Positions 334-19,102 of a stretch of 64,000 nucleotides of DNA are shown here, piece after piece. Origin of the DNA: a virus (taxonomy: Duplodnaviria; Caudoviricetes). The stretch is from IMG/VR virus record IMGVR_UViG_3300038679_000021, positions 20,560 through 84,559 of that record. One strand, given 5' to 3'. The notes beneath the pieces are model-generated. The model searched no databases, was not told the origin of the DNA, and saw only the letters and a program-made list of their open reading frames with translations. Each line of letters opens with the position of its first letter. Position 1 is the first letter of the stretch. Position numbers and translations under genes: made by a program.

Positions 334-1368
334 TCAGTCAACCCAAGACTCTTGGGCCAGCGTTTTTCTCTGTCGGAAATTCGGGATATTCCAACCGATA
401 ACTCTGCCGTCTTTCAACTCGATGGCAACAACGCCAGTACCCGAAGGATTTGTTCCGAGAAACCAATGTGAGCGATTCCCATTGGCCTTTGGGTCTGTCG
501 TCGGTGTCTTAACGGTTCGAATCTCGTATACTTCAGTCAACGTCCGATCTCGGGCGACAGTTAATCGGACGATTTCACCATTGTACTTCGCCGGAATTAG
601 AACTACAGGTCTTCCTGTAGTTTCACTCGTCTCTTTCCAGAGGAAGTTCTGGTCGCCTTGCTTATCTACAGGGAGCGGATTGGGGGTAGGCGGCGGTGTC
701 GGAGGGTCCGGGGTCGGCGGCGGGGGTGGCGGGACATAAACATACCCGCACATCACACAAGGCGTTCCGGTATGCCCGTACTTACTACAAAAGTTCTTGG
801 CATTGTAAGCACGGCCCCAAGAATACTTTGAAAGAAACTTTGCCAGCTTAGTGTACCAAGACTTGATATCGATATCTACAGCCTCAACAGGCATTGGGGC
901 TTCGATCAGGTCAGAGGATTGAGTCAGTCCGGAAGACGTAGAATGCCAACCGAGAATCCAAGTCCTCCACTCAGGTGGAAGGCTTGGAGAACCTGTTTTG
1001 TTCGCTGCAAGAGCATGCGCGAGTTCATGCACTAGATGTTCCTCGGGGAGGAAGCCATCTACGTGTTTCGCAAGGTCGATATTAGCTATCTCTCTACTCC
1101 CTCGGAACTCTCCCACGTTCCCACTAGCAAGTGTAGCAACTTGCCGTTGGAAGTGTCGGGACCATGCTGTCGTCTCTCTTACATACACGCGAACGGCGAT
1201 CTTCTGGAAGCCCCACTTCCAGCCAGATTTCTGCTCGCAGTATGCCATAGCAGATTTGACTCTGCTCTCGTCAATGCCCTGCAACTTTGAGAAATAGGGC
1301 TCATTCCTCATATCATGGAAGGTAGCACACCCAGAAAGCAGAATAGCAACGATAGGAAGTGATCGCAT
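334..1368 (-). CDS. Predicted lipoprotein with HExxH zinc-metallopeptidase motif, Cys cluster and poly-Pro linker
   Basis: Lipobox LLSGC at residues 10-14; HELAH motif; CSKYGHTGTPCVMCG; PPPPPPTPDPPTPPPTPNP linker before a C-terminal domain. Confidence 0.7.
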   Translation of the reverse strand: MRSLPIVAILLSGCATFHDMRNEPYFSKLQGIDESRVKSAMAYCEQKSGWKWGFQKIAVRVYVRETTAWSRHFQRQVATLASGNVGEFRGSREIANIDLAKHVDGFLPEEHLVHELAHALAANKTGSPSLPPEWRTWILGWHSTSSGLTQSSDLIEAPMPVEAVDIDIKSWYTKLAKFLSKYSWGRAYNAKNFCSKYGHTGTPCVMCGYVYVPPPPPPTPDPPTPPPTPNPLPVDKQGDQNFLWKETSETTGRPVVLIPAKYNGEIVRLTVARDRTLTEVYEIRTVKTPTTDPKANGNRSHWFLGTNPSGTGVVAIELKDGRVIGWNIPNFRQRKTLAQESWVD

Positions 1369-1376
1369 AAGGCTCC

Positions 1377-3257
1377 TTATTTTTGAAGCTCTAGTATGAA
1401 CAGCCCACCAGCATTGGTAACGATATTCGGACCCATGTTAAGAAGCTGGAAGTACATATACACCGGGGCCGTGCCATTCCCCGGACCCGCAGGAATAGCA
1501 GAACCAACAGGAACCATATTGGTGGTTTGCGCCCTGAGATAGGGATTTGCCATAGCAGTATACGCGGTGTTTGTGAAGTAGTTGAATGCCCCGAATCCCG
1601 CTGAGTTTCCTCCACCAGACCAACCAGCATAGATACGCCAAGCCATTCCTGTGGTATAGTAGGTGGTTTGGTCTATCAGATTGTTTGTATTGTACTCTAG
1701 CTGGAAAGCTATCCTACTAATATTTGTATACAGCCCACCGGGCCACATATCTGCAAAAGCGATAGATCCGACAGAGCTTGTGTTTGCAGCAACAGTAGCA
1801 GAAGGAATACGTACGGAAACCATAAGGCGATCAGGCCAGTTGGAATCTGTTATATTGCACTTAACTGCCCCAACCTTCGCTGCCGTGATATTCGTCAGGC
1901 TCCCGCCGTCCCCCGTCGCGCCCGGCACAAGCGCCAGCGCCACGGTCCCCGTCGCCGCGATGCCAGCGTTCGTGGCATAGCCGCTGGACGCCGCATAACC
2001 AGAGTTGGTGCCATAACCAGCCGATGTTGCATACCCTGCATTGGTCGCGAAGCCCGCCGATGTGGCGTAGTCTGCCACCAGCGCGACTGTTGACGTTGGC
2101 GCGGCGTAAGTGGTGCCCAGCGTTGCGACCTGAGCCAAGAGGTTGCTATAATCCGTGGAAGAAAGAGCGTTGGTGGTATAGGTAATAACAGGAGCATTGG
2201 TGACAATGATAGCCTCCCAAGCTACGTCGAGACTGACCGTAGGAGAACCCTCATACTGCGCGTCAGTTGCAACATAGGTATCCGCAGGGCTATCCATGAT
2301 AGCCGTCTGCGATTGATACATATTATTCCCGTCGTTTGCGAGATACCAAATCAACCCCGCTTGATACCAGAAGCACCACCAATTAGTCTCCCCAAGAAGG
2401 ACAAAGGCAGGGCCGTTACCAGACTTGCCATTAGTGGCAGTATAGGTGCCACCTATGAAATCGTTCGTAGTTGACCAACCATCGAGACTCCAAATCGCCC
2501 CGTTGGGTGTAACCGTAATACTGCCTACATAAGAGTTCGTAGTATAGGTGGCGTCTCCGACAGTAGCACTGACCCAAAACACTCTTTCGATTGATTGTGT
2601 GTGGTTTGCAATCTCAAGTTGCTGTACTGCATTAGTGTCGTGGGCCAGAGAGGTATAGACCCTAGCAGCACCGCCTGTATTAATCACCGCAGACATTGCG
2701 GTAGCTGCAAGCCCACTAGCTGTATTTCCCCAAGCAAGAGGATAACTCCCAGCCGAAGAAGCAGTGACAGAGGCCGAGACATCTGCAAACATTGCGAACC
2801 CATTAGATCGCGAAAAAGCCTCCGCAAGAGGGAACACTAAACCAGAGTTAGTATTAACCGTAACTGCCCTAGTAGAAGACGTACTCGCAGCATTGGTATA
2901 CGTAGAAGCAAGAGTAGCGAAGTTCGAGATGGAAGACCATCCATATTCGGGGGCATTGGTGAACAGCAGCTTGAAGTAGTAGTTACTCGAAGGCTTCAGC
3001 CCGTAGAGATAGTGGCTAACCGTACCTGTAGCCATGCTTCCTACAAGAGAGTTCCCGTCCCAAGCCTCGAAGTCCTCCCCGGCGTCGGCCCCGCCGTAGA
3101 CAACATAGACATTACCTGTAGAGGCATTGGTAACAAGGCCATCGACAACAGCAAAAACTGAGCCTACAGAGCTTGTCCCAGAGTTGACGAGAGTAGCCGC
3201 GTCCAATCTGCAATCGATTGCAGATAAAAAAGCCAGCAAAACGAGCAGTTTTTTCAT
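1377..3257 (-). CDS. Tail fibre/receptor-binding-like protein with N-terminal signal peptide and FN3-like segment
   Basis: Likely start MKKLLVLLAFL at 3257, coupled TGATG to the upstream gene. GLKPSSNYYF resembles FN3; T/S/N/A/G-rich; hexapeptide repeats; distal tail position. Confidence 0.55.
   Translation of the reverse strand: MKKLLVLLAFLSAIDCRLDAATLVNSGTSSVGSVFAVVDGLVTNASTGNVYVVYGGADAGEDFEAWDGNSLVGSMATGTVSHYLYGLKPSSNYYFKLLFTNAPEYGWSSISNFATLASTYTNAASTSSTRAVTVNTNSGLVFPLAEAFSRSNGFAMFADVSASVTASSAGSYPLAWGNTASGLAATAMSAVINTGGAARVYTSLAHDTNAVQQLEIANHTQSIERVFWVSATVGDATYTTNSYVGSITVTPNGAIWSLDGWSTTNDFIGGTYTATNGKSGNGPAFVLLGETNWWCFWYQAGLIWYLANDGNNMYQSQTAIMDSPADTYVATDAQYEGSPTVSLDVAWEAIIVTNAPVITYTTNALSSTDYSNLLAQVATLGTTYAAPTSTVALVADYATSAGFATNAGYATSAGYGTNSGYAASSGYATNAGIAATGTVALALVPGATGDGGSLTNITAAKVGAVKCNITDSNWPDRLMVSVRIPSATVAANTSSVGSIAFADMWPGGLYTNISRIAFQLEYNTNNLIDQTTYYTTGMAWRIYAGWSGGGNSAGFGAFNYFTNTAYTAMANPYLRAQTTNMVPVGSAIPAGPGNGTAPVYMYFQLLNMGPNIVTNAGGLFILELQK
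1962..2069 (-). repeat. Six in-frame 18-bp/hexapeptide repeats ([YF]ATxAG-like)
   Basis: YATSAG FATNAG YATSAG YGTNSG YAASSG YATNAG in the translation. Confidence 0.85.
3206..3225. promoter_or_regulatory. Perfect 20-bp palindrome ATCTGCAATCGATTGCAGAT (copy of recurring site)
   Basis: Read directly; inside the 5' end of the 1377..3257 gene. Confidence 0.75.
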
Positions 3258-3922
3258 CAGGTTTCTCCCGCGCCCCAATCGCCAGTAACCGATCCTTCGA
3301 TTCCGTTCGGGAAAAACTCATGGTATTTTCCCGTAACACTATTGAAGAGAAGAAATCTTCCGTCGTCCGTGAATCTCCACTTCGCATTCGTGGGAATTCT
3401 CGGGACGAAAAGATTGTTCACGTAGTCCAGAGAAGCGTAAGAGGGGAGAGGGTTGGCCGAAGGGGAGCCCACTTCGACGGCAATGTTCGAGACGATGATG
3501 GGGATATGGAAGAGAAGGTAAGGCGACTCACCCGGAGGCGTGGCCCACAAGGCTGCGAAGGCCCCGAGGTTGGCCCCCGTACCTATGGCGGTGCGGAGTT
3601 CGCTGGTGTTCATGTTCACCCGCCAGCAGACTTTTCCAGTAGCGAGGTCGAAAGTCCAGTCTCCTGCGATGTTGAACTGGCTATGAAGGCTGGAAACAAT
3701 ATCCGCCTTTCCTGCGGTATATTCATTGTCAATACCGAAGTAGAAAACCGTCCCTGTTGGGAGGTCGAATGCCGTCAGGTCCGTTTTCTGGAAAGTTACC
3801 TTCATCAAAACCTGAGTGCCCCGCCAGAAAGTGAGGGAACCATCGAGGGCAGTACCGTCGGAATTCTTCACGGTAAAGGTTTCGACATCGACAATGAGGT
3901 CGTAAACAAGTCGGGAGTTCAT
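3257..3922 (-). CDS. Putative baseplate/fibre adaptor (BppU-like N-terminal region)
   Basis: 221 aa, beta-rich, between the large tail protein and the fibre gene; coupled overlap. Confidence 0.45.
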   Translation of the reverse strand: MNSRLVYDLIVDVETFTVKNSDGTALDGSLTFWRGTQVLMKVTFQKTDLTAFDLPTGTVFYFGIDNEYTAGKADIVSSLHSQFNIAGDWTFDLATGKVCWRVNMNTSELRTAIGTGANLGAFAALWATPPGESPYLLFHIPIIVSNIAVEVGSPSANPLPSYASLDYVNNLFVPRIPTNAKWRFTDDGRFLLFNSVTGKYHEFFPNGIEGSVTGDWGAGET

Positions 3923-3962
3923 AGGTAAAGAATAACAGAAGGGGAGAATAGGTCAACCAAAA

Positions 3963-6900
3963 TCAGAAAGTCCACTTAATAACGGAGAAGGGTGTCTCCA
4001 TTTGGTAAGACCAATCTGCTCGATATGACTTCTGATCCTCAGTAAAGGTATACTCCCAAGTGAAGTTTACCTGTTCCTCGTTAATGTAATCTTCGACGTA
4101 AAGAGTGCGCGTAAACGGTCCAGTATTCGTAGATGCGATATTCGTTGTAAAGGCATACGTATTATAGTAGTAAGTGCTGGGCGTTCCTTGGTTAGAAATC
4201 TCAGAAGAGAGTTCTGTAAAGGTAACAGGAGAGTATACAAAAAGGCCGGGGGCAGAAGTAACAGAAGTCCCTACTAACTCAACATCTTCCACAACAGAAG
4301 TAGACGCCTCGATTACTAACCAAGTATCAGGGATGAAATACTCTTCCTCATAAGGAGAGGCGACCATTGGGATTTCCATGTAGAATCCTGCATAGGTCTC
4401 TGAAGACTCAAGATCCCGAATAGTAGCAACTACAGGATCGGGTGGGGTAGTAGGAAGAAGCGAGGTTGGGGTGATAACAGCAGTAGTGGCCCCTTTGGCT
4501 TTTGCTGTAACACCAACGTTTCTATAGTTGGGTTCAGACTCCGTGCTATTGAGAATGTTCGTGAAAGGGGTTCCGGCTTCGACAGTAGGGGCACCCCAGC
4601 CTTCGCCCCCGTAAGGGTCGATATTCACTGAGTAGTAAGCGTCCGCTGTTTTCTCGTAAGGAAGGAAACCATTGGTTACTGCAAGGGGAGAAAGCCTAGT
4701 CGGCTTGGAGTACATTTCAACAGAACAAGCAAGACGGTCAGAAAGATTCGGCAATGCATAATCACCAAAGGATTTGCTCTTGGTAAAAACAAGACTCCAA
4801 TCATCCAGAAGGTCGTTATCTGAGCTTCTGCCGTTGGATGAAACATATCTTCCGCCGCCTTCGTACCTTTGTGAGTAGGTGAGCGTGAGAAGATACTCAG
4901 TGAAGTTGCCGTACTCTGTAATATGATACGGAAGATAATGCGTAAGGTTGGTAGTTACTGCTTGGCCCTTAGAGTTTACATAAATGTCGAGGTAGTTCGG
5001 GCCTCTCGTCGTATTGTAATCTTCCGCCAGAGGGTTTCCGCAATCTACGACGACCTGCACATTGGTACTGTCAACATAGTCCGGATCGCTGGGTTTCTTC
5101 CTATTGTCATACGTTTTGTTTATGTTAAGAACGGTGCTGGTGGAAAACAATTTAGTAGGGTCAACAAACTCATAAGTATCGTTCGTGGCGAGCGTTTGGG
5201 AAGACGACGCATAAGTCCACTTCAGTTCCTCAAGAGCCGCCAACCTCTCATTGAAGAATGATCGGCTCATCCAATAAGCAGGGACACTTCCGTAGGAAGG
5301 GGCACTAGCTTTTTGCTTCCAGATAATAGAAGACCCGATAAGAGTGTTGGTCTCGTCCACAAGCTCAAGAGTTTCGAAACCTGAGCCCAAGGAAACAGAT
5401 TGGCAAAGTGTATCTGCAACAGAGTTGGTGGAGCTAGAAACAGTAGAAGAGAAAGTCTCCGACTCTAGGGTAACATACGGCCCGGTGAATGCTCGAAGAA
5501 CAGATGCCGTAACAGCTACATCAAAAGTAGGAATAGCGGTATTGGTAGTTGCTCTTTCAAACAGAAGATACCCAGTACCAAGGTCTTGGATGGGCATAGA
5601 CGGAAGATAAATAGCATTCGTGAAACCCGGATGCGTTGCGTTATAGAGATACTCTTCGAAGTCCCCATACGACTTAGCATTCCCTACTCGCACTGTATTG
5701 TAAATGCCATCAGTGCCAGCGTAGATAAACTCCAAGCTCGCTAAAGCCTTCTCGTAAGTATCGACTTTGGCAGTCCTTGTAAAGGATGCGACTTTGCTGG
5801 TGGAGATAAAGTTTCCGGCAGCATAGAAGTTCGTGACGTAGTAAGCATCGTAATCGGCAACTTCCCAGCCGTAAACGATGTTAGTATATGGCTCTTGGTT
5901 TTTCGCTATCGAGACAAGAGTGGTTCCAACATTCGCTTGCGTAAGAACCTTCTCTAGTGTCATAAAAGGAAGGGCTGTGTAGTACACTGTAGTGTTTGTC
6001 CACTCTCCTTGTTCAATGAGTGTAAACTCTTCATCGTAGTAGCTAGTGTCGGCCCAAGACCATAGTTGAGAAGACTGATTGAGATAGGTATCAAAAGACC
6101 CACCAGAGGCTTGGGAGTCATCTAAGAAGTAGGGGATCAACGCAGAAATCTCGTAGTCTATTGCCGCCATGTTAGACCAAGAGAGATAGTCTACTATTCC
6201 TTCAGTGTCTCCATCGACAGTAGGCTGCTGGGAAGTCCAAGCGAAGTTCGTGGCGATCACTACCATGACATTCGTGGAATTCCTAAGAGTTACCGTACCA
6301 AACTCTGGGTGCCCTTCGTCAAACTTAGCATCTGCCTGAGTGAAGTAGTTAGAAAAGATCGGGGACGGGCGATAAGCGTTCGTTACGAAAGTACCCGGCG
6401 GGCTTTCATAAATCCAGTACCACTCTGGAGCGGTGAGGTTGTAATTGGAAACATACGTGGAGTTCTTGTTAGTCCAGAATGCTCCGTCAATGAAAGTGTA
6501 ACGAGATTCGAAATAAACATCCCGATAGGCCCCGGCGGTATTCGTGAGAACAGGGACATATTCCTCAGTGTAATCTTGGATCGAAGGGCCAAGAAGCACT
6601 TCCTCTGTTATGTTGGAAAGGTACTGAGAATAGTAATACCCTTCCTCAGTATAGGTTGCAGCCCTGTCGGGGATGGCCGTGACGTTAGTAACAGGATCTC
6701 TCCGCTCTGCGTCAGTGAGGGTAGGGTAGTTTACGTCAGGGTTCGCTACTCTTACCCACGTCTGCCCATTGGAGATAGCATAAGGAAGCGTAACAGGCTG
6801 GGTGAAGACCGTCAATGGCCGGTAGTAAAGACGGTTTGTGTGGTTAATCCCCGATGAAGGGAGATTCGTAACACTCACACCATAAAACGTAGCCTCTTGC

Positions 6901-7019
6901 CTTGCGTGGAGTTTTTCTGCAATGTTCGTGAGTTCTGCATAAGGCAGAAACTCGACAGAGGGGTCGAGTTGAGCGCATGCCGTAGAAGCGAACAGAAGGA
7001 GTATTAAGGGCCTAGCCAT
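3963..7019 (-). CDS. Large (1018 aa) T/S/Y/N-rich tail-region protein with signal peptide
   Basis: N-terminus MARPLILLLFASTACA|Q fits a Sec/SPI signal; lies downstream of the tape measure where hub/Tal genes usually sit. Confidence 0.55.
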   Translation of the reverse strand: MARPLILLLFASTACAQLDPSVEFLPYAELTNIAEKLHARQEATFYGVSVTNLPSSGINHTNRLYYRPLTVFTQPVTLPYAISNGQTWVRVANPDVNYPTLTDAERRDPVTNVTAIPDRAATYTEEGYYYSQYLSNITEEVLLGPSIQDYTEEYVPVLTNTAGAYRDVYFESRYTFIDGAFWTNKNSTYVSNYNLTAPEWYWIYESPPGTFVTNAYRPSPIFSNYFTQADAKFDEGHPEFGTVTLRNSTNVMVVIATNFAWTSQQPTVDGDTEGIVDYLSWSNMAAIDYEISALIPYFLDDSQASGGSFDTYLNQSSQLWSWADTSYYDEEFTLIEQGEWTNTTVYYTALPFMTLEKVLTQANVGTTLVSIAKNQEPYTNIVYGWEVADYDAYYVTNFYAAGNFISTSKVASFTRTAKVDTYEKALASLEFIYAGTDGIYNTVRVGNAKSYGDFEEYLYNATHPGFTNAIYLPSMPIQDLGTGYLLFERATTNTAIPTFDVAVTASVLRAFTGPYVTLESETFSSTVSSSTNSVADTLCQSVSLGSGFETLELVDETNTLIGSSIIWKQKASAPSYGSVPAYWMSRSFFNERLAALEELKWTYASSSQTLATNDTYEFVDPTKLFSTSTVLNINKTYDNRKKPSDPDYVDSTNVQVVVDCGNPLAEDYNTTRGPNYLDIYVNSKGQAVTTNLTHYLPYHITEYGNFTEYLLTLTYSQRYEGGGRYVSSNGRSSDNDLLDDWSLVFTKSKSFGDYALPNLSDRLACSVEMYSKPTRLSPLAVTNGFLPYEKTADAYYSVNIDPYGGEGWGAPTVEAGTPFTNILNSTESEPNYRNVGVTAKAKGATTAVITPTSLLPTTPPDPVVATIRDLESSETYAGFYMEIPMVASPYEEEYFIPDTWLVIEASTSVVEDVELVGTSVTSAPGLFVYSPVTFTELSSEISNQGTPSTYYYNTYAFTTNIASTNTGPFTRTLYVEDYINEEQVNFTWEYTFTEDQKSYRADWSYQMETPFSVIKWTF

Positions 7020-7606
7020 GACTTCAGATCCACAACGCCGAGATGCAAATTAGAGTACCAAATAGAGCTTCCATAAACGAAGACTTCGTACAGAGGCATA
7101 CGCCAATGGGTAGTGGTGTGCCCGGTGAAGGTACTAGCAGGAACAGAAGATGAAGCAATAGCACCCGTCAAAGGAGAAACCGTACCTTCGGCATAGATGA
7201 TATGCCGAGCCGCCGGAGCCCCTCCGACAAGGACACTCCCAGAAGTTAAGTCCCAGTTCTGATTAGGCGATAATGAGGCTCCCGGAATCTTCACAAATTG
7301 GTTGAATCCCATGACATAGGATTCTCTCAGGTAAACACGGTAAACAGTCGGACCTTCTTCCATCGAAACAAGACCAAATCCGAAGAGGCTAAGATCCATT
7401 GTCCCAGACCCTCTGCGGGACGGAGGCGTCAAAAGGGAGATGACTTTCATCCCCCCTTTGATTGCAACTTCGAAATCAGTAGGGCTGAAAAACGTAAGGT
7501 TGCTTCTGTTTGCAGAGGCAATCAGAGCATTGTGGTCATCCCGAACCAAAAACCGTTGGGTGCTTGGGATGGCCGGAATTATCCCAGACTCGGCAGGCGT
7601 CTTCAC
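7004..7606 (-). CDS. Putative tail protein
   Basis: 200 aa ORF overlapping both neighbours in the tail operon. Confidence 0.5.
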   Translation of the reverse strand: MKTPAESGIIPAIPSTQRFLVRDDHNALIASANRSNLTFFSPTDFEVAIKGGMKVISLLTPPSRRGSGTMDLSLFGFGLVSMEEGPTVYRVYLRESYVMGFNQFVKIPGASLSPNQNWDLTSGSVLVGGAPAARHIIYAEGTVSPLTGAIASSSVPASTFTGHTTTHWRMPLYEVFVYGSSIWYSNLHLGVVDLKSWLGP

Positions 7607-8667
7607 TCAGATTCCTTGTTAGATAGTTTGAGGACTTTTGCCAAGTTCTGCGGAGGAAACGCCGTGTAATCCTCAAACGTGGCAGATTCCTCTGTAGTGC
7701 CTGTCTTCAGCTTCCGGCGATCATAACAGCCGTCAGGACGCAAGTAGTGATTCCAACCACCGATGTTATTCGTAGCGTCAAGAACTGCATTCGCCCCTGT
7801 TCTTCCCCAAGCATCTTTCCAGATATACTTGATGGAAAAGTTGTGCGTACCTTTGTATCGAAGGTTTCCTTGGGCATCGAAAACGGGATCAAGATTTCCA
7901 CCTTCGTAGATTACTGTTTCAGGAGGCATCTTGAAGATCGTTGCTTCGTTACAACTCTGTGCGGCGTTCGCCATGCGCTCAAGAATGTCATCGAAATCGC
8001 GGTAATGCTTGATAACAGTAACGGTTCCCGTGAGAACAGGAGCCCAAATCTTCCCTTTGTTTGTTCCTCCACCTTTCCAGATCGAGACATTACTCAGAGG
8101 GGCGGGATTGGGGGAATATCTATCACGAATAGGGTTCGCCCAAACAATGTAGTTCCTGAAGAAGTTTCTCGCATCATCCCACGGAATCTTCGAAGCCCCG
8201 CCAGTCTCAGAACCAGAGTTGAACATCCAATCAGAAAGGTCAATAGTATCAGCGGTGAACCCGATAGTGAAAGACTTTTGCCAATCCGCTTCTTTCTGTT
8301 CCTCGTCATCGTCAGAGTTTCTCTTTCTAGTTTCGTACTTACAAGTGTACTGCACACAAGAAGGATCGTCTTGAGCGATTCCTACATCAATAGATCGGAG
8401 AATACAAGTTGTAAAAAGAGGGGAACCACTAGGTATAGGCAACGCTAGCATGGAACTTGAAGTCCCGTCAATCCACGGTTGAGGATAACCAAGAGGAGAA
8501 CGAATAGTAGGAAGAGTTTGGTCAAATCCGGCTTGCTTTCCACATTTGAGGCTCTTGAGGAAGACACGGGTAGCTGTAACGCCACCTTCATCATCGACAG
8601 TAAGGTTCCACTTACCTTCGATTTCCTTGCACTCAGCGATTGGAATTGTAGGGGTAACGATAGCCAT
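7603..8667 (-). CDS. Putative distal tail/hub protein
   Basis: First gene after the tape measure; 354 aa; call is positional. Confidence 0.5.
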   Translation of the reverse strand: MAIVTPTIPIAECKEIEGKWNLTVDDEGGVTATRVFLKSLKCGKQAGFDQTLPTIRSPLGYPQPWIDGTSSSMLALPIPSGSPLFTTCILRSIDVGIAQDDPSCVQYTCKYETRKRNSDDDEEQKEADWQKSFTIGFTADTIDLSDWMFNSGSETGGASKIPWDDARNFFRNYIVWANPIRDRYSPNPAPLSNVSIWKGGGTNKGKIWAPVLTGTVTVIKHYRDFDDILERMANAAQSCNEATIFKMPPETVIYEGGNLDPVFDAQGNLRYKGTHNFSIKYIWKDAWGRTGANAVLDATNNIGGWNHYLRPDGCYDRRKLKTGTTEESATFEDYTAFPPQNLAKVLKLSNKESE

Positions 8668-8675: not shown

Positions 8676-11600
8676 CTACGCGAAGACGCCGCCACCCTTA
8701 TTTAGAGCCGCAGCGATCTCAGCCGTATTCTTGTTAATATCACCGAGATTGTCTTCCGGATCAAACTCTGGGCCTTTATTAGAGGGAATCCCAGAAGTGC
8801 CAGCCCCGCCAACAGAAAGATAGGGACTAGGCACTCCATTCATAAATCCCGCAGAAAGGGATTGCAAGAACTCATAGAGACCCGCGCCGCCAGCAACGTT
8901 GGCGATCTCAATCATTGTGTCTTTGGTTTCTGCCAAAGACTCGTTAAGTTTTGCATTCTCTTCTGCACTCTTAGCAATAGCGTTAGGAAGAACATTCTCT
9001 AAAGACTGAATCTGCAACAAACGCTCTAGGAGTTTATCAAGAGGAATGTTCGCAAACCAGTTGTTGAAGCTCTTTGAGCCCGGAACAAACCTCTGAAGAG
9101 CGGCTCCTTTTCTCTTCTCCCTCTCATCAAACTCTGCAAGAGCCTGCTGTCGATTAAAAGTAACACTAGGCCCCTCTCCGGGGAACTTCTTCTGCAAAGA
9201 CTCCTCGAACTCAGAGCGTCGTTTAGCTAGACCTTCTTTGCTGCTAAACGCAGGGAAAATAGCGGAGAAGACTTCGCGTATCTTGGCAGCAGTACCAGAA
9301 AGAGTAGTTTCAGCGGTCTTCTTCCCAAGAAACTTTTCTTGGGCAATCTGATTCTGTATTCCGGTAGGGAGAGTGTTTGCAGTGATCGCAAAACCGAACT
9401 TCTTTTCGAACTCTTGGGAAAGACCTTGAACAGCTTGAGAGGAGTCGATAGCTTCCTTAGAGATACCCATAGCCCTCATTTTTGCAAAGAGAACTTGGAA
9501 TCTCTGGTAGAAAGGCCCCATTGCTGCTTCAGTCTTACTGTAATCCCCAAGCGGAGAGGCTTGAGCCCGATCTTCGGCAACCGCTCCGATTGTCTCACCG
9601 AAGATAGCAACTTTTCTCTTTATCTCGGCAGATGCCTTAGCTGCTTCCTGATTCCCTGCAAATCGCCCGAACAGAAGTTCCCTGAAATAATCTTTCGGGA
9701 TATCCGGATTCAGCGCACTGATTTCGTCCAGAGCTTCCGCCATATTTGCCTTAAAGCCCTCACCAAAGTTTGCAACGCTCTTCTTGATGTCGCCTTTCAT
9801 TTCCGTCAAAGCAACCTGAAGAGTTGCCTCAACACCAGCTTGCCGCAAAGCATCAATGACTTGGGAAACAACCTCGGAAGCCCCGCTATCACCTAAGTTT
9901 TTAATAAGGGCTTCGTCGAGAACCTGAGTAACGAAGTCACTGGGGTCTCTTTTAAGACCGAGAGTTTCATTTAACCTAAGCGAATCCTCGATAGCTTTAG
10001 TAACTGCCTTACCTACTTGAATAGCCGAGTTCGCACCAACTCCCGACTTCTCCAAGGCAGCAGTAACTTTACTCCCAATTGTCTCTTCCTCTGACAGGAT
10101 AGGATCAAAACCATAACGTTGAGTGAAAGTTTCGCGCAACATTTTTGCGCGTTCTTTGTTGGCTGCTACCGCTTCTCTTTGAGAAGCTACAAACTTTCTA
10201 CCTACGTCTATAGGTTCCGGTGAAGGGTAGTCTAAAGAAACGTTGGACTCTTTCAGTCTCTTAGCTTTCTCTATGATCCGTGAGGTTTCCTCCCACATCC
10301 TGTCTTCAAAAGAATTCGCGTCTAAGAAAGCCTCTCGGAACTCTTTGATTTGCCTACGATCAGCAGAGGATCGATGGGCCGTGGCGATCTCGCTTTTTAC
10401 ACTAGATGGGAGAAGAGGCTTCGCAACAAAAGCCCTTGCTGCGGTCATTCCGGGCAAGTTAAGCCGTAAAATATCCGCAGTAAAGGCATTTGCCATCAGC
10501 TTACCGAGCCCGATGAAAATACCTTTAGAAGCTGCGAAAATAGAGATTAGTAGATCCGCTAGAGATTTGACCAGCCCCTTCAAAAGGATGTAAACCATCA
10601 TTAACGTCTTCTTGAAGTCAAGTTTCTCACTTGCCATCTTAAAGGCGTCACCAAGAGTACTCCCGAGGGCTTTGGCAAAAGGCGCACCACGGAACTCCCA
10701 CCAACTTCTGATCTTCTCAGAGGTAGCCTTAACTATTTTCCAGATATTCTTGAAACCAGAGGTCATCCTCTCAACAAAACCCTCTCCTGAACCTAGTGCA
10801 TAGATCAAAGTGGTAATTGCCATGATCGGAATGGACATTAACGTGAGTTTCACAAGAAGAAAACCGAGCCGAAGAAGCATTAAGCCAATCAGCTTGAGAA
10901 GAGAGGCAAGACCTTTCAAACTGAGAAATGCTAACATCTTCAGAACTGCTTTGACGGCACTTCCGCCGAGAACTCGCATAGGCGCGGTCATGTGTCGCCA
11001 TGTTCCGGCAACCTTGGAGAAGCCAAGAAAAGCCATTACCCCTGCGAGACGACCAAGCACCGCTCGAAAAGCCACAAATCTCACGACAGCCAAACCAAGA
11101 GCCGCCTTTATGATTGCAAACTTAGCCACAGCAATAGCTCCTAATGCGGCAAAAGCTGCCCCTATTTTCCCTCCCGCAATAACTACCCATAACTTCGAAA
11201 AGCTGGTTGTTAAAAGCGTAAGAGGGAAGAGAATACGGAGGATTACTCCAAGTACGTTTTTCACAAGACTGAAGCCAAATAAGGCAAACAGCATAGGGAA
11301 TCCCATAAGAAAAACCCTAAACTTAGAAAAAAGGGCCATGATAACTAGAACTGGCCCCACGAAAGCTGTAAAGACGCCAAAACTGACCACGGCTGTTTTT
11401 ACCTTGGACGGAATCTTGGCAAAAGCGTTAGAAAATCTATCAATCTGATCTGCGGCACGTCGCACGACAGGAGCAAGATGTTGCCCTAAATCGATCCAAA
11501 ACGCCTTGAGGCTTTGAGCTACTCTATCGAGGACGAAACCAAGAGATTTAGTTTGTTCCGCAAACATTCGTTGCGTCATTCCGGCAACGTTGGAGTAAGT

Positions 11601-12524
11601 ACCAACTCTCTGCATATCCGCTGCGAACTCTCTGCCATCATTTCGCGTAAGGCTCATTGCCGCACGCATAGCGCGGATATCTAACTTTAGCTTCCCGATC
11701 TCTTCTGCGGAACCATGGGTCACACCTTGTAACCACTTAAAAGCACCTCCGAGACCTTTTGCACGAATCATTGCCGAACCAGAAGAGTATCCAGCTTCCT
11801 TGATCTTATCAATAAACTTTCCGGCGGGCTTGATGAAGGCTCGCATCATCGAAGATAAGGCAAAGGCGGCACTCGCAGAAGTAAAACCAGCACGGGTGAT
11901 TGTAGCCATTGCTGCGGAAACTTCACCAATGGAAACACCAGCAGCGGCAGAATTCGCCATGACATCGCCCATGTGGGCGGCAAGTTCCTCAAAGGTAATA
12001 ATACCCCACTTAACTGTGGCGAGCATGTGATCGCTTACTTTTTCGACATCCTGCGCGCTCATCGTATAAGCGTTCAAAGTACTTGCTAGAACTTTGGCAG
12101 CAGCCGCAGTAGTGGTCAACCCGGCGCGTGACGCCAGAGCTGCAACTCGGAGAATCTCCAAGGAATCCGCACCGAAGAATGCGGCTGAAGTGATATCATA
12201 CAAACCTTTGGCAAGGTCTTCGGGAGGCTTACCAAACTCCCGAGACAGCTTCATAACAACTTCGGTATAACTCTTGAGGGTCTTTTCAGAGACTCCCGCA
12301 AGAGTATTGACGTTCCGCATTGCGGTATCAAGAGCAGCAAATGATTTTACTGCCTTATACCCTGCCGCTGTAAGAGCCCCAGTAAACGCGAAAGACATCT
12401 GGCGACCAAGAGCCAGCATCCTATTTTCGGTATGATTAACGCGTGTGACTAACTTGTCTAAAGCTCCCTTGGCTTGCGACCAGTCTGCCCCGATTTGAAT
12501 GCCTAATGCACCAATGGAAATCAT
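8676..12524 (-). CDS. Tape measure protein (TP901-like)
   Basis: 1282 aa, Ala/Gly-rich helical protein; N-terminal 'FAALDTAMRNVNTLAG...LAKGLYDITSAAF' pattern; hydrophobic central block; follows the frameshifted chaperones. Confidence 0.93.
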   Translation of the reverse strand: MISIGALGIQIGADWSQAKGALDKLVTRVNHTENRMLALGRQMSFAFTGALTAAGYKAVKSFAALDTAMRNVNTLAGVSEKTLKSYTEVVMKLSREFGKPPEDLAKGLYDITSAAFFGADSLEILRVAALASRAGLTTTAAAAKVLASTLNAYTMSAQDVEKVSDHMLATVKWGIITFEELAAHMGDVMANSAAAGVSIGEVSAAMATITRAGFTSASAAFALSSMMRAFIKPAGKFIDKIKEAGYSSGSAMIRAKGLGGAFKWLQGVTHGSAEEIGKLKLDIRAMRAAMSLTRNDGREFAADMQRVGTYSNVAGMTQRMFAEQTKSLGFVLDRVAQSLKAFWIDLGQHLAPVVRRAADQIDRFSNAFAKIPSKVKTAVVSFGVFTAFVGPVLVIMALFSKFRVFLMGFPMLFALFGFSLVKNVLGVILRILFPLTLLTTSFSKLWVVIAGGKIGAAFAALGAIAVAKFAIIKAALGLAVVRFVAFRAVLGRLAGVMAFLGFSKVAGTWRHMTAPMRVLGGSAVKAVLKMLAFLSLKGLASLLKLIGLMLLRLGFLLVKLTLMSIPIMAITTLIYALGSGEGFVERMTSGFKNIWKIVKATSEKIRSWWEFRGAPFAKALGSTLGDAFKMASEKLDFKKTLMMVYILLKGLVKSLADLLISIFAASKGIFIGLGKLMANAFTADILRLNLPGMTAARAFVAKPLLPSSVKSEIATAHRSSADRRQIKEFREAFLDANSFEDRMWEETSRIIEKAKRLKESNVSLDYPSPEPIDVGRKFVASQREAVAANKERAKMLRETFTQRYGFDPILSEEETIGSKVTAALEKSGVGANSAIQVGKAVTKAIEDSLRLNETLGLKRDPSDFVTQVLDEALIKNLGDSGASEVVSQVIDALRQAGVEATLQVALTEMKGDIKKSVANFGEGFKANMAEALDEISALNPDIPKDYFRELLFGRFAGNQEAAKASAEIKRKVAIFGETIGAVAEDRAQASPLGDYSKTEAAMGPFYQRFQVLFAKMRAMGISKEAIDSSQAVQGLSQEFEKKFGFAITANTLPTGIQNQIAQEKFLGKKTAETTLSGTAAKIREVFSAIFPAFSSKEGLAKRRSEFEESLQKKFPGEGPSVTFNRQQALAEFDEREKRKGAALQRFVPGSKSFNNWFANIPLDKLLERLLQIQSLENVLPNAIAKSAEENAKLNESLAETKDTMIEIANVAGGAGLYEFLQSLSAGFMNGVPSPYLSVGGAGTSGIPSNKGPEFDPEDNLGDINKNTAEIAAALNKGGGVFA

Positions 12525-15774: not shown

Positions 15775-16087
15775 GAAGTCTCATCCATAGCTCGGTGTGG
15801 TGTGTCATGCCATGCTTTTGATCCACGTAGAGGACATCAAAAGTCCGCCCCCCATTAACAACACGCGATTTTGAAGTCACCACAGAGTTGGGAAGCATCG
15901 CTAGCTTATGAGTGCTGAAGACTGTCTCTTTCAAGAAGAGCTTCGATTGTTCCTCACCCTGAAGAGACCAAATCCTACAAGGTACAGAAGCGGCAAGAGC
16001 AAAAGTGCTGACTTCGCCACCAGCTTCATCTTGCGTGACAACTGGGGTATGAATCTCGGCTCTGGTATTGAAAGTGATGTGAATCAT
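15767..16087 (-). CDS. Head closure/head-tail joining protein (SPP1 gp16-like)
   Basis: QDEAGGEV...RVVNGGRTFDVLYVD pattern; 106 aa. Confidence 0.85.
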   Translation of the reverse strand: MIHITFNTRAEIHTPVVTQDEAGGEVSTFALAASVPCRIWSLQGEEQSKLFLKETVFSTHKLAMLPNSVVTSKSRVVNGGRTFDVLYVDQKHGMTHHTELWMRLRE

Positions 16088-16090
16088 ACG

Positions 16091-16624
16091 TTAATCCGTG
16101 GTTTCGTTGTAGCTACCAAAACGGTCAGACAGAAAGTGAGCGTCCATATAGGCCAGAGCTATCTCCCCAGTGCCCCACGTGTCCCCAGCAGACAAGCGGA
16201 TAAGCTTCACGTAAAGAATAGAAGAGTAAACCTCGTTCGTCGGCGCGGAAAGGTTAGTAATAATAGTATTGATCTTTTGTTTATACTGATCCGCGCTTGC
16301 CAACGTAATCGTGATAGTATTGGTGTTGGGGAGCGAGGCAGGAATCTCGTCGTTGTGATTATACCAACCCCACGCATAGCTGATCTGAATATCGCCAGCA
16401 GCAGCCGCAATAGGGATGAAGTGAAGGTGGACCGAATCGATAGGTGTACCGAGCGATTTGCGGTGGGGCATCTGAAAGACCATAGAGAAAACATCGTCAC
16501 GCGCAATGTGCGGCATCACTATACCAGTGGAACGGTATTGCCTAGGCGTATAAGTGGTAACGCCAGCAAGGGCTGTCTGAAGGATGCCCTGAATGTCGTC
16601 GTGATACTTATGGGATGTAATCAT
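16091..16624 (-). CDS. Hypothetical virion-module protein
   Basis: 177 aa, coupled to neighbours. Confidence 0.55.
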   Translation of the reverse strand: MITSHKYHDDIQGILQTALAGVTTYTPRQYRSTGIVMPHIARDDVFSMVFQMPHRKSLGTPIDSVHLHFIPIAAAAGDIQISYAWGWYNHNDEIPASLPNTNTITITLASADQYKQKINTIITNLSAPTNEVYSSILYVKLIRLSAGDTWGTGEIALAYMDAHFLSDRFGSYNETTD

Positions 16625-17460
16625 GGAACCCTCATCAGTTCATTGGTGTAGTAGTTTGACTGATAGTAGATGATCGATCTCAAAACAAGATTAGACTCCC
16701 CAACTTCGGAAATGTTAAACCAATTGGTTGCAACACTATTAGTTAAGATAAGGTTTGCTAACCCAGAAGAAAGAAGGGCTGTGGCTAGAGGATCAGTCTC
16801 TTTCGGAGAAGGTGCAACGAAGATAACCCCCTGATTATTGTGCGAAACTACACACCTACCGATAATCAAAGGAGCAGTCTGCCCTTCACCAATGTAATTG
16901 GTGGTGATCGCTCCAGCATTTGTTGATAGATAAAGTAACGCCCCTTCTTCGAACATAGAAGTGTTAAGTTCCCTTACCAATCCGTAAGAAGTAACGATAC
17001 CTTCTTGATTATTGGTAATGTTATGAGTTGCAATGCCGAGTACTCGCGTTCTCAAAGGATTATCGGCATCAGCAAGAGCACCTGAAATCCTATTCCCCGA
17101 CGCAGAAATACAACTTACGACACACCCATTAGAAATCGTCGATCCATGTTTATTTACTATTCTTATCCACTGCTCTTGCCCTACCTGCAACTTCGCAGGC
17201 AAGTCGGGAATTAGAGTAAGGGTATGGTCGTCTACATCCCAGTATACCTGCCCCTCAGTGGTAAAACCATTGTCATACGGAATAAACTGAAAAGACCGAA
17301 TATGGTTAAGGTCATTCGTACCAAGAGAAATCCCATTGGTAAAGACAGGCTGTAAATTAGGATTTACGACAATCCCGTTAGTGTCGGTTTGTAGGTAATG
17401 TCTGATATCCAACCCGAAGCAGCTAGTGGCAATCAGTAGAAGAGGGATTACGTGTTTCAT
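16621..17460 (-). CDS. Signal-peptide-bearing protein with fibre/decoration-like beta domain
   Basis: MKHVIPLLLIATSCFG|L; GIATHNITNNQEGIVTSYGLV...GALLYLS resembles small beta domains in phage appendage proteins. Confidence 0.55.
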   Translation of the reverse strand: MKHVIPLLLIATSCFGLDIRHYLQTDTNGIVVNPNLQPVFTNGISLGTNDLNHIRSFQFIPYDNGFTTEGQVYWDVDDHTLTLIPDLPAKLQVGQEQWIRIVNKHGSTISNGCVVSCISASGNRISGALADADNPLRTRVLGIATHNITNNQEGIVTSYGLVRELNTSMFEEGALLYLSTNAGAITTNYIGEGQTAPLIIGRCVVSHNNQGVIFVAPSPKETDPLATALLSSGLANLILTNSVATNWFNISEVGESNLVLRSIIYYQSNYYTNELMRVP

Positions 17461-18302
17461 ATAGCTTCCACAGTGGAGTTTCCTTCGGAATCGATCTTCA
17501 AGCGCATACCCGCCGCGATGTTGAGCTTGCCGTTGAGGATGGCATCTACCTCTGCCGCAGAGTAAACAACAGAATCCAAGGGGGTAATCGTCCCACCAGA
17601 GACTCTAGTAGCAGTCTCAGGCCCGTTGAGGAACAAGGAAGCCATGGAAACATACCGGCTGAGAATTCGGTCGATCTCAAGGAATCCAGTGAGAGAGTTT
17701 CCCTTCGCGAGACGGGAGTTGTTCATGAACGAAATCGAGAAATCTCCGATAGAGTAACTCCCAACCCCCGCAGGAGCCATTCCGGACTGTCCGGGGAGAA
17801 GAAGCTCGAAGGCATAAAGACAAATGGCCCTCTTGATCTCCAAAGGGGTGGTAAGCATGCCCCAGACCCCCGTAACCTGATAGTTCCTCTGCCCCGGCAC
17901 AAAGACGTACCCTCCAAGGGCGACGATCCTGCGGCGGCGGGAGTGGGGTCCGGTGGGGATGGGTGACAGGTAGTGGTGGCAGTTCGTGTAGTCTTCGTTC
18001 TCAACTAAGTCGTAAGCCGTGGAGATTACTCCGTCGTTCCATTCGAGTTCTTCCACCTTGGTGATGGAGAGAAGAGGATACATGATCGCGGGAGGGAAAG
18101 TCAGGGTGTTGTCACGGGCTCCATCGATCTGCCACACTTCGGAAAAAGCCCCGAAACGATTCTGAGTGACTCTTTCGAAGATTTCCTCAGTCTGGTTCAG
18201 AGCGGCCTGAATTTCAGAGTCGGAAAAGCTACTTACCGGAATTGCTGTTCCGTCTCTGCCTTTGAAAGCCCGGAACTCGGCGATTGAAACGTAGTTGCTC
18301 AT
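17457..18302 (-). CDS. Head-tail adaptor (gp6/gp15-like)
   Basis: Likely start MSNYVSIAEFRAFKG; Y.S..E..., IERVTQNRF, PLEIKRAICL, SYSIGDFSISF motifs. Confidence 0.8.
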   Translation of the reverse strand: MSNYVSIAEFRAFKGRDGTAIPVSSFSDSEIQAALNQTEEIFERVTQNRFGAFSEVWQIDGARDNTLTFPPAIMYPLLSITKVEELEWNDGVISTAYDLVENEDYTNCHHYLSPIPTGPHSRRRRIVALGGYVFVPGQRNYQVTGVWGMLTTPLEIKRAICLYAFELLLPGQSGMAPAGVGSYSIGDFSISFMNNSRLAKGNSLTGFLEIDRILSRYVSMASLFLNGPETATRVSGGTITPLDSVVYSAAEVDAILNGKLNIAAGMRLKIDSEGNSTVEAI

Positions 18303-18397
18303 GTCTGTTTCCTTGAAAAGTTCCCTGCAATCGTGTGCAGATAGCAAACCGGGGTGAGACCTTTCGATCCCACCCCGGCATCATACCGCATTTTCGG

Positions 18398-19102
18398 CTA
18401 GCGATCAATCACAGCCGTGAATCCGCCAGTCGTAGCCGTGGTGCCTCGCGTGGCACGAATCAGCATGCGATTGGGAATGTAAAGGCCGTCACTGAATTCA
18501 CGATTCAGTTGCACTGCCTTCAACTGAGTAGTGGCGACAGAGTTGAAAACACCAGCGTACTGGGTCTCATTCCACACCAGATTACCACCCGAATAGATAC
18601 TCAGCGTGATATCGCCAGTACCACCGACATCGCCAGCGACAGACTTCAGCATACCTCCACGCGCCGAGAGGCTGTAGTGCAACGCCGTCGAGGTATCGTA
18701 CATCACCGAAGTGATCGTTCCGTTCGTGAGGGTATACGTACCATCGAGCAACTCGCCATCCGTCGAATCAGTCGTCAGCGAGTACTGCGAATCCACGACG
18801 ATAGGCGTCGTAGTCGTAGTCCCACTCACGTAGATACACGCCTCAAGAGCAGCCCGCAACTCCGCAACCGTATCGATGGTGCTATCACCAGCAACCGTGT
18901 TGGTAGTCGTACCGATAATCACCGCCATGTCATTGGCCGCGCCGTTCGTGGTCACGACGAACTTTCCGGCAACGCCGGACTGATCGAGCGTGATCGTGAA
19001 CGCGGGAGAGGCATCAGCGGCAATGTACTCAGGAACCGGAGCGGCAGAAACAACCGCAGCAGCCGTGAGCGCAGCAAACAGAGCAATCAGACTCTTCTTC
19101 AT
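18398..19102 (-). CDS. Signal-peptide-bearing T/A/G-rich protein immediately downstream of the capsid genes
   Basis: Probable start MKKSLIALFAALTAAAVVSA|AP at 19102 (internal to the listed ORF); strong SPI-type signal; GC3-rich codons like the capsid gene. Confidence 0.7.
   Translation of the reverse strand: MKKSLIALFAALTAAAVVSAAPVPEYIAADASPAFTITLDQSGVAGKFVVTTNGAANDMAVIIGTTTNTVAGDSTIDTVAELRAALEACIYVSGTTTTTPIVVDSQYSLTTDSTDGELLDGTYTLTNGTITSVMYDTSTALHYSLSARGGMLKSVAGDVGGTGDITLSIYSGGNLVWNETQYAGVFNSVATTQLKAVQLNREFSDGLYIPNRMLIRATRGTTATTGGFTAVIDR

What the first reader, a model, noticed from the sequence alone, without database searches (positions are those of the whole stretch)
334..19102. Five export-signal proteins embedded in the virion morphogenesis operons
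Seen: Sec-type signal peptides at the N-termini of 18398..19102 (MKKSLIALFAALTAAAVVSA|), 16621..17460 (MKHVIPLLLIATSCFG|), 3963..7019 (MARPLILLLFASTACA|) and 1377..3257 (MKKLLVLLAFLSAIDCRLDA|), plus a lipobox in 334..1368. They occupy head-decoration, neck and distal-tail slots; 16621..17460, 3963..7019 and 1377..3257 overlap an upstream gene, suggesting coupled translation. Established: tailed-phage virion proteins fold and assemble in the cytoplasm and normally lack signal peptides. Inference: either particles acquire parts that mature in the periplasm or at the envelope (a distinct assembly/egress route, perhaps in a host with a large periplasm), or these late proteins are displayed on the infected cell. 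The strongest candidate for an undescribed system here.
Basis: partly seen in the sequence, partly recalled or inferred. Interest (0 to 1): 0.85.

Follow-up and report, generated by a model that had tools for sequence, protein, structure and literature searches.

The report
Export signals on phage outer-virion proteins
An uncultured 84.6-kb long-tailed groundwater phage puts bacterial secretion signals on two capsid-side and two tail-fibre-side proteins plus one lipoprotein inside its particle-building operons, which suggests that outer parts of the virus mature outside the cytoplasm, a route I found described for no tailed phage.

Summary
All five ORFs start with a Sec-type or lipoprotein-type signal at a well-supported start codon. 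Such N-termini are concentrated in the late block (6 of 21 ORFs against 3 weak ones of 78; p = 0.003).

- **SP1 (18398-19102):** it belongs to an unnamed family. All 32 members examined keep a signal of the same type but different sequence. The gene always lies 0-1 genes after the capsid gene, in two capsid lineages.
- **SP4 (1377-3257):** both full-length homologues keep the signal, and the ribosome-binding junction is conserved at the DNA level.
- **SP2 (16621-17460):** its core has the fold of capsid cement (decoration) proteins (Z 8-10). None of 39 sequence relatives carries a signal.
- **SP3 (3963-7019):** an orphan.
- **334-1368:** a textbook lipoprotein with an HExxH motif, lying beside a spanin-like gene pair. 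It may be an ordinary lysis or exclusion gene.

My best reading (0.45) is that decoration- and fibre-type parts are exported and join cytoplasm-built particles when lysis merges the compartments. The main rival (0.30) is that they are exported envelope-acting proteins that never enter the virion.

This scan has reported the same phenomenon on other DNA about ten times. I found no paper describing it.

The parts
18398..19102 (-). SP1: 234-aa exported two-domain beta-sandwich/jelly-roll protein. The signal is codons 1-20 (19043-19102).
   Evidence: 32/32 family members carry a charged n-region, 16-28 uncharged residues and an AXA-type site. Model pLDDT 81.7. Generic jelly-roll matches with Z up to 7.0.
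19107..19394 (-). It ends 4 nt before the SP1 start.
   Evidence: No family hit.
19415..19441 (-). 10-bp G+C-rich hairpin (GGGGGCGGTA / TACCGCCCCC) starting 11 nt after the capsid gene stop.
   Evidence: Read directly from the sequence. Not folded.
19452..20507 (-). Major capsid protein, no signal (context).
   Evidence: 23 related viral loci at 22-68% identity.
17457..18347 (-). Head-tail adaptor, no signal (context). Its stop overlaps the SP2 start.
   Evidence: phrog_442, E 3e-13.
16621..17460 (-). SP2: 279-aa protein with a Sec-type leader (codons 1-16, 17413-17460), a roughly 55-residue linker and a capsid-cement-fold core (residues ~72-218).
   Evidence: PF09956 at 20.8 bits, below the cut-off of 24. 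VIA Z 10.3, 9.8, 8.9, 8.4, 8.3 and 8.2 to capsid decoration chains of HFTV1, Pam3, FCWL1, Adjutor and Patience. 0/39 sequence relatives have a signal.
16091..16624 (-). 177-aa signal-less gene inserted together with SP2 between the adaptor and head-closure genes.
   Evidence: Weak CBM_35 hit, E 0.026. Flanked by Hc1 at 15767-16087, phrog_25.
8676..12524 (-). Tape measure protein with about 10 hydrophobic segments (context).
7603..8667 (-). 354-aa signal-less distal-tail protein; role (Dit or hub) unresolved.
   Evidence: Only unnamed viral look-alikes.
7004..7606 (-). 200-aa signal-less distal-tail protein. It overlaps the SP3 start by 16 nt.
3963..7019 (-). SP3: 1018-aa orphan, rich in Thr, Ser, Tyr and Asn. 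The leader is codons 1-16 (6972-7019), with ACA|Q.
   Evidence: No homologue, family or look-alike. No alternative start in 45 codons.
3257..3922 (-). 221-aa signal-less gene always paired upstream of SP4-type genes. Candidate docking partner (inference).
   Evidence: A 224-227-aa gene sits in the same position in L030 and in the contig of P0109. Sequence similarity is not significant.
1377..3257 (-). SP4: 626-aa fibre-like protein. Leader (codons 1-20, 3198-3257), an FN3-like domain (~25-120), short A/G/Y/T/S repeats and a variable C-terminus.
   Evidence: P0099 and P0109 share leader + domain + ~50 residues, and their C-termini are unrelated. The junction GGGGCG(C)GGGAGAAAC before the ATG is conserved in L030.
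334..1368 (-). 344-aa lipoprotein: lipobox LSG|C at residues 11-14, HELAH motif, Pro/Thr linker and a ~110-aa C-terminal domain.
   Evidence: No homologues or families.

Best explanation
The N-terminal segments are working Sec signals (a lipoprotein signal on 334-1368).

The core particle carries no signal and is built in the cytoplasm: portal, capsid protein, adaptor, head closure, neck, tube, tape measure and the two small distal-tail proteins.

Four peripheral proteins are translated from the same operons, often by coupled translation, and are sent to the periplasm where the leader is cut off. These are SP1 and the cement-fold SP2 on the head side, and the large SP3 and the fibre-like SP4 on the tail-tip side.

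They would meet the finished particles only when the holin and endolysin steps merge cytoplasm and periplasm, or after release, and dock then. Known decoration proteins and distal fibres can likewise be added to finished particles in vitro.

What is shown: the signals exist, sit at the real starts, are conserved as a property in SP1 and SP4 relatives, and SP2 has a capsid-cement fold. What is inferred: export itself, cleavage, virion membership and the timing of docking.

The lipoprotein is more likely an envelope-acting lysis or exclusion protein than a virion part.
For: - Signals and starts.
- SP1: 32/32 members keep an n/h/c signal whose sequence is not conserved, which points to selection on the property. 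The gene lies 0-1 genes after the capsid gene in loci with two capsid types.
- SP4: both full-length relatives keep the leader. The conserved N-terminal module with a variable C-terminus is the usual fibre layout. The RBS junction is conserved at the DNA level although the proteins share only 27-28% identity.
- SP2: the top 8 structural matches are all phage capsid decoration proteins, six of them at Z 8.2-10.3. Sequence relatives are structural fibre genes beside adaptor genes.
- No signal-less paralogue of any of the four exists in the genome, so these are the only copies.
- The genes are coupled into the operons, and flanking promoters or terminators are not above chance.
- All recognised core parts lack signals.
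- From established knowledge, not tested here: lambda holin lesions are hundreds of nanometres wide, spanin-less lysis leaves an outer-membrane-bound sphere, and gpD, Soc, Hoc and T4 long fibres bind finished particles in vitro.
Against: - No experiment, no virion proteome and no trained signal predictor.
- SP3 sits where a central tail hub or fibre (gpJ/Tal) would be. If it is the hub, export is incompatible with tail assembly, and its identity could not be resolved.
- 0/39 SP2 relatives have a signal.
- SP1's fold is a generic jelly roll that also fits lectins and the exported non-virion protein XepA.
- The mature proteins have few cysteines, so there is no obvious need for periplasmic folding.
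- The host and its envelope are unknown.
Confidence: 0.45

Rival explanations
1. The proteins are exported but never become virion parts. They act on the infected cell's envelope. Receptor- or glycan-binding domains derived from virion proteins would mask receptors, exclude superinfecting phage, or stop progeny from sticking to debris. This would make them larger analogues of lambda Lom/Bor, T5 Llp, Cor or PBSX XepA.
For: - Exported genes inside late operons are known (Lom, Bor, Cor, Llp, XepA; my knowledge).
- SP1's C-terminal domain best matches carbohydrate-binding modules (Z 7.0) and XepA (Z 6.2).
- Low Lys/Arg and high Thr/Ser/Asn/Tyr composition fits secreted adhesins.
- The SP4 domain recurs in giant, probably cellular, proteins of which 16 of 57 have signals.
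- The lipoprotein sits next to the last fibre gene, as llp and cor do.
- MAT fibres show that phage-like fibres can be exported and surface-displayed (PMC10769870).
Against: - SP1 keeps a fixed place after the capsid gene across distant phages, unlike sporadic morons.
- The genes are translationally coupled and have no promoter of their own above chance.
- SP2 has a capsid-cement fold, and no signal-less copy exists that could serve the virion instead.
- No integrase or lysogeny role was seen in the parts examined.
Confidence: 0.3
2. The hydrophobic N-termini are not export signals in vivo. They would be uncleaved anchors or assembly arms, leaders removed by the prohead protease, or membrane tethers that localise assembly at the inner membrane.
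For: - Matrishin et al. 2023 proposed protease removal for signal-like leaders on capsid proteins of Porphyromonas phages (PMC10367356).
- SP2 relatives work without a leader.
- SP2 and SP4 have a TTG near the predicted cleavage site, which could give a leaderless isoform.
Against: - The full n/h/c layout with small residues at -3/-1 is kept in 32/32 SP1 members while the residues themselves drift.
- AlphaFold models the leader as a detached low-confidence helix.
- Such segments are normally captured by the Sec/SRP machinery.
- The tail-side proteins never meet the prohead protease.
Confidence: 0.12
3. Chance or mis-called starts: the real starts lie downstream and the hydrophobic stretches are untranslated.
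For: The gene calls are mine. SP2, SP4 and 334-1368 have downstream in-frame start codons.
Against: - SP1 and SP3 have no alternative start in 45 codons.
- The starts overlap upstream stops or follow an SD sequence (AAGGAG, GGGAG).
- The SP4 junction is conserved in L030.
- Enrichment p = 0.003.
Confidence: 0.03

Closest known systems
Capsid decoration (cement) proteins of the gpD / beta-tulip type: HFTV1, cyanophage Pam3, FCWL1, mycobacteriophages Adjutor and Patience, E217, TW1; phi29 gp8.5 base; Pfam PF09956
   Same: The SP2 core (residues ~76-224) superposes on them at Z 10.3 to 7.2 over 114-131 residues. There is also a weak PF09956 hit.
   Different: None of these has a signal peptide. 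SP2 has one, plus a ~55-residue linker and a ~60-residue C-terminal tail. The Pfam score is below the family cut-off. The gene lies between the adaptor and head-closure genes rather than next to the capsid gene.
Lambda Lom and Bor, T5 Llp, Cor of phi80/N15/T1-like phages (exported or lipoprotein genes beside tail genes)
   Same: Signal-bearing genes embedded in or next to tail and fibre operons. The lipoprotein 334-1368 follows the last fibre-like gene, as llp and cor do.
   Different: Those are single small proteins, often with their own promoter. Here there are five, up to 1018 aa, translationally coupled, with virion-type folds. There is no sequence similarity.
PBSX XepA / SPbeta YomS (exported protein of a Bacillus prophage late operon)
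   Same: A late-operon exported beta-sandwich protein. SP1 aligns at Z 6.2.
   Different: The Z score is within the range of chance jelly-roll matches. XepA belongs to a lysis module in a monoderm host.
Signal peptides on Porphyromonas phage genes (Matrishin et al. 2023, PMC10367356)
   Same: Signal peptides were reported on phage proteins, including capsid proteins, spanins and unknowns. Gln at +1 (the Bacteroidetes Q-rule) also appears in many SP1 relatives and in SP3.
   Different: That paper does not describe exported decoration or fibre proteins, and it attributes the capsid-protein leaders to the prohead protease.
Mosaic adhesive trimer (MAT) fibres of Bdellovibrio (Caulton et al. 2024, PMC10769870)
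   Same: Phage-fibre-like proteins that are exported and displayed outside the cytoplasm.
   Different: Those are cellular genes used for predation. They are not in a phage morphogenesis operon.

Membership tests
Sec / signal peptidase I (type I) signal peptide | Positively charged n-region followed by an uncharged hydrophobic h-region of about 8-20 residues within the first ~30 residues | tested here: met
   SP1-SP4: net charge +1 to +2, h-regions of 10-17 residues with mean Kyte-Doolittle 2.1-3.0.
Sec / signal peptidase I (type I) signal peptide | Small or neutral residues at -3 and -1 after the h-region | tested here: met
   VSA|A (SP1) and ACA|Q (SP3) are classical. CFG|L (SP2) and LDA|A (SP4) are acceptable but less typical. 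The SP4 c-region is constrained by an 18-bp DNA palindrome.
Sec / signal peptidase I (type I) signal peptide | The signal is kept as a property in homologues | tested here: inconclusive
   SP1 32/32 and SP4 2/2 keep it. SP2 0/39. SP3 has no homologues.
Sec / signal peptidase I (type I) signal peptide | Positive call by a trained predictor; export and cleavage shown experimentally | not testable with these tools
   No SignalP or DeepTMHMM was available, and there is no proteome.
Bacterial lipoprotein (signal peptidase II) signal | Lipobox [LVI][ASTVI][GAS]C at the end of a short h-region, with a basic n-region | tested here: met
   334-1368: MRS-LPIVAILL-LSG|C, Cys at residue 14. SP2 (ATS-C) and SP3 (STA-C) fit only the looser PROSITE-style pattern.
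Capsid cement / decoration proteins (PF09956 and the gpD-like fold) | Pfam gathering score | tested here: not met
   20.8 bits against a cut-off of 24.
Capsid cement / decoration proteins (PF09956 and the gpD-like fold) | Fold shared with solved capsid-bound decoration proteins | tested here: met
   Six of the top matches at Z 8.2-10.3, all phage capsid decoration chains. The model core has pLDDT 60-82.
Capsid cement / decoration proteins (PF09956 and the gpD-like fold) | Binds the capsid lattice as a trimer | not testable with these tools
Moron-type exported genes (Lom, Bor, Cor, Llp) | Autonomous unit with its own promoter and terminator, and sporadic distribution | tested here: inconclusive
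   Promoter and terminator counts equal the shuffled expectation. SP1 has fixed synteny in all examined loci that extend upstream to the capsid gene. There is no sequence similarity.
Two-component spanin (for the pair just outside the window, genome 19033-20309) | N-terminal-TM protein followed by an overlapping small outer-membrane lipoprotein gene | tested here: inconclusive
   TM at residues 17-35 of the 237-aa protein. The next gene overlaps it by 1 nt and starts with MNIIR...LATG|C. There are no family hits, and the 237-aa protein weakly hits a tail-fibre-chaperone PHROG.

The most novel reading that the evidence does not exclude
Tailed phages of several lineages, here a long-tailed one, finish their virions from two compartments. 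The DNA-filled core is built in the cytoplasm. Decoration and fibre proteins are Sec-exported, perhaps to be glycosylated or otherwise matured in the periplasm: this phage also carries a GT4 gene inside its tail operon and a ten-gene sugar operon. These proteins dock only during the brief stage when holin lesions join the compartments.
Probability: 0.4. Interest if true: 0.9.

Novelty: new variant of a known kind. Interest (0 to 1): 0.72.

Why it matters
Textbook tailed-phage assembly happens entirely in the cytoplasm.

If outer parts are exported and added at lysis, several things change. Virion composition could no longer be read from gene order alone. Periplasmic chemistry such as glycosylation, lipidation or disulfide formation could act on phage surfaces. 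Lysis timing would become part of assembly.

If instead these are non-virion envelope effectors, they form a large hidden class of late phage proteins built from virion domains.

Either way, the SP1 family is a widespread, unnamed, exported protein tied to the capsid gene. It is absent from all 50,697 deposited phage genomes searched.

Tried and rejected
- **N-glycosylation sequons:** N-X-S/T is not enriched beyond composition (SP3 z = 1.6, SP4 z = -1.0). Dropped.
- **Host or prophage search:** two scans of 185,579 species genomes, with the capsid protein and with the SP1 alignment, found nothing.
- **SP3:** no homologue, family, Atlas look-alike, PDB sequence or GenBank phage match. No internal repeats.
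- **334-1368:** no homologues. The NCBIfam hit to EmtA covers only the lipoprotein leader.
- **SP1 fold:** Foldseek against PDB and BFVD gave nothing specific. VIA gave only generic jelly-roll matches, Z at most 7.0.
- **7603-8667 (Dit or hub?):** unresolved.
- **Whether SP1 is a core gene in SU10-capsid phages:** scans with that capsid protein returned only a contig already held.
- **Partner 3257-3922 against L030 447-1121:** not significant, E 0.46.
- **Paralogues within the genome:** none.
- **A phage-encoded oligosaccharyltransferase or other multi-TM enzyme:** none. Only the tape measure has many hydrophobic segments.
- **Read laying:** the DNA runs X2 and X3 carry the identical sequence, so there was no variation for a selection test. 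Short contigs from two RNA libraries overlap 18472-19326, 17311-17615 and a few other spots, but DNA carry-over cannot be excluded, so this is not counted as expression.
- **Promoter and terminator scan:** equal to the shuffled expectation.


Full report
**Setting**

The window is bases 20560-84559 of an 84,559-bp virus record. Near-identical DNA occurs in several groundwater metagenomes.

On the minus strand lies a complete head-neck-tail block:
- large terminase (23829-25505), portal (22239-23759), protease/scaffold (20533-22239), capsid protein (19452-20507)
- head-tail adaptor (17457-18347, phrog_442), head closure (15767-16087, phrog_25), neck/tail completion (15262-15774, phrog_5)
- a small tube-like protein (14452-14841)
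- a GT4 glycosyltransferase (13241-14371, PF00534 E 1e-10)
- chaperone, then a 1282-aa tape measure (8676-12524)

There is no sheath gene, so the phage is long-tailed and non-contractile.

Just beyond the window start lie a 237-aa protein with an N-terminal TM segment and an overlapping lipoprotein gene. Together they look like a spanin pair and hint at a two-membrane host. They hit no spanin family.

**The observation**

All five ORFs are present and begin as described.

Using a simple rule (net positive n-region, at least 10 uncharged residues with mean hydropathy of 1.9 or more), such N-termini occur in 6 of 21 late-block ORFs. Elsewhere they occur in 3 small doubtful ORFs of 78 (Fisher p = 0.0026). 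SP1 is additional, because its ATG lies far inside the longest frame.

The start codons are well supported:
- SP1 and SP3 have no alternative start in 45 codons.
- SP2's ATG overlaps the adaptor stop (ATGA).
- SP3 overlaps its upstream gene by 16 nt.
- SP4's ATG overlaps the upstream stop (TGATG) and follows GGGAG.
- The lipoprotein follows AAGGAG.

The 349-nt 'gap' after the capsid gene holds a strong hairpin and a 95-codon ORF that ends 4 nt before SP1. So all five genes are packed into the operons. Promoter- and terminator-like sites are no more frequent than in shuffled sequence. The genes therefore do not look like self-contained morons.

**SP1 (18398-19102)**

A search of 5.8 billion proteins found 23 relatives at 30-42% identity. 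Eight more came from viral and metagenome contigs.

All 32 members, SP1 included, have a basic n-region (+1 to +4), 16-28 uncharged residues and AXA-type sites, while the residues themselves are not conserved. That pattern is what selection for export looks like.

In every locus that extends upstream as far as the capsid gene, the SP1 gene lies directly after it or one small gene later. This holds both next to this phage's capsid type (L001, 68% capsid identity) and next to SU10-type capsid genes (L024-L028, L034, L040, L043, L047, L049). In some of those loci the next two to four genes also begin with signals.

The AlphaFold model (pLDDT 81.7) shows a detached leader helix and two beta-sandwich domains. 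Structural matches are generic jelly rolls: CBM32 at Z 7.0, XepA at 6.2 and the Helicobacter phage KHP40 cement protein at 5.7. The fold therefore does not fix a function.

No deposited phage genome encodes a relative.

**SP2 (16621-17460)**

Sequence relatives (35-40% identity over the core) are 230-460-aa proteins. In many of them this domain forms the C-terminus behind a collagen-like segment. They are encoded beside SU10-type adaptor and collagen genes, which makes them virion fibre genes. None of the 39 has a signal.

The model is confident only in the core (residues ~72-218, pLDDT 60-82). That core matches solved capsid decoration proteins well above background:

| Match | Z |
|---|---|
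| HFTV1 | 10.3 |
| Pam3 | 9.8 |
| FCWL1 | 8.9 and 8.3 |
| Adjutor | 8.4 |
| Patience | 8.2 |
| XM1 | 7.6 |
| E217 | 7.2 |

Further down the list come the phi29 gp8.5 base, TW1 and lambda gpD.

SP2 and the signal-less 177-aa gene after it are inserted between the adaptor and head-closure genes, which are normally adjacent. In this phage a virion-type cement domain has therefore acquired an export leader where its relatives have a fibre shaft.

**SP4 (1377-3257) and SP3 (3963-7019)**

An exhaustive HMMER search found that SP4 residues ~25-120 are an FN3-like module. The same module is repeated up to 19 times in giant proteins.

Two full-length-type relatives, P0099 and P0109, share three things with SP4: the leader, this module, and about 50 further residues. 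Their C-termini are unrelated. That is the usual layout of a fibre with a conserved docking end and a variable binding end.

In all three contigs a 221-227-aa signal-less gene lies immediately upstream. The junction GGGGCG(C)GGGAGAAAC-ATG is nearly identical in L030 although the proteins share only 27-28% identity. This supports both the start codon and coupled translation.

SP3 has no detectable relative of any kind. It occupies the slot and has the size of a central tail fibre or hub. I could not decide between those roles, and this is the weakest point of the virion reading.

All four Sec-type proteins are poor in Lys/Arg and rich in Thr, Ser, Asn and Tyr, unlike the core proteins. None has a signal-less paralogue in the genome.

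**The lipoprotein (334-1368)**

It has a canonical lipobox, an HELAH motif, a Pro/Thr linker and a small C-terminal domain, but no relatives. It follows the last fibre-like gene and precedes the spanin-like pair. I read it as a lysis- or exclusion-type envelope protein, which is an ordinary category, though its enzyme type is unknown.

**Explanation**

Two points are well supported: the signals are real, and in SP1 and SP4 they are under selection. Which compartment the proteins finally work in is inferred.

I favour (0.45) export of peripheral virion parts with docking at or after the holin step, for five reasons:
- the cement fold of SP2
- the fixed position of SP1 after the capsid gene
- the fibre-like modularity of SP4
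- the absence of signal-less copies
- every recognised core part lacks a signal

The rival (0.30) is that these are envelope-acting proteins derived from virion domains, acting in receptor masking, exclusion or anti-readsorption. Smaller rivals are non-export uses of the hydrophobic leaders (0.12) and mis-called starts (0.03).

**Comparison with the literature and with this scan**

Among papers I could search, the nearest is Matrishin et al. 2023. It notes signal peptides on some Porphyromonas phage proteins and the Gln(+1) rule. Many SP1 relatives and SP3 have Gln at +1.

Caulton et al. 2024 show that exported phage-like fibres exist in a bacterium.

Searches for exported decoration proteins found nothing relevant.

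Earlier notes of this scan report the same phenomenon on roughly ten other genomes, mostly short-tailed phages. These are unverified AI notes. My results here were obtained independently and agree with them. New in this case are a long-tailed phage and a cement-fold protein whose 39 relatives all lack the signal.

Noticed in passing
window 19107-19441: A 95-codon ORF fills the apparent gap between the capsid gene and SP1. A 10-bp G+C hairpin starts 11 nt after the capsid stop. Relatives (L001, L005, L012) have a small gene in the same place.
   Followed up: partly
window 3207-3224: One copy of the genome's recurrent palindrome (TCTGCAATCGATTGCAGA) lies inside the signal-coding part of SP4. It dictates the odd c-region residues S-A-I-D-C-R.
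   Followed up: partly
window 13241-14371: A GT4 glycosyltransferase (PF00534, E 1e-10) with no TM segment or signal sits between the tube and chaperone genes. Together with the sugar operon at 26337-35265, it could supply glycans for virion or exported proteins.
   Followed up: partly
window 8676-12524: The tape measure protein has about ten consecutive hydrophobic segments (residues ~375-660).
   Followed up: no
L024 10825-14923; L027 8765-10155; L028 8270-9703; L032 1272-5596; L034 10491-11502: In several SU10-capsid-type phage contigs, the two to four genes after the SP1 homologue also start with Sec- or lipoprotein-like signals. One of them (L032, 685 aa) has short tail-fibre PHROG hits.
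   Followed up: partly
alignment A1 and loci L040, L043, L044: Many SP1 relatives have Gln right after the predicted cleavage site (the Bacteroidetes Q-rule). In this phage only SP3 does, and 36% of its genes have an SD motif against a 15% background, so its host is probably not a Bacteroidota member.
   Followed up: partly
genome 19033-20811 (just before the window start; locus L038): A 172-aa one-TM protein, then a 237-aa protein with an N-terminal TM segment (weak tail-fibre-chaperone PHROG hit), then an overlapping 187-aa lipoprotein. This may be a holin/spanin-like cassette. No endolysin was identified.
   Followed up: partly
window 18740-18760 (SP1 residues ~105-112): This phage's SP1 has a Thr5 run (GTTTTTP) that its relatives lack, and the lipoprotein has a Pro/Thr linker. 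Both are possible O-glycosylation sites.
   Followed up: no
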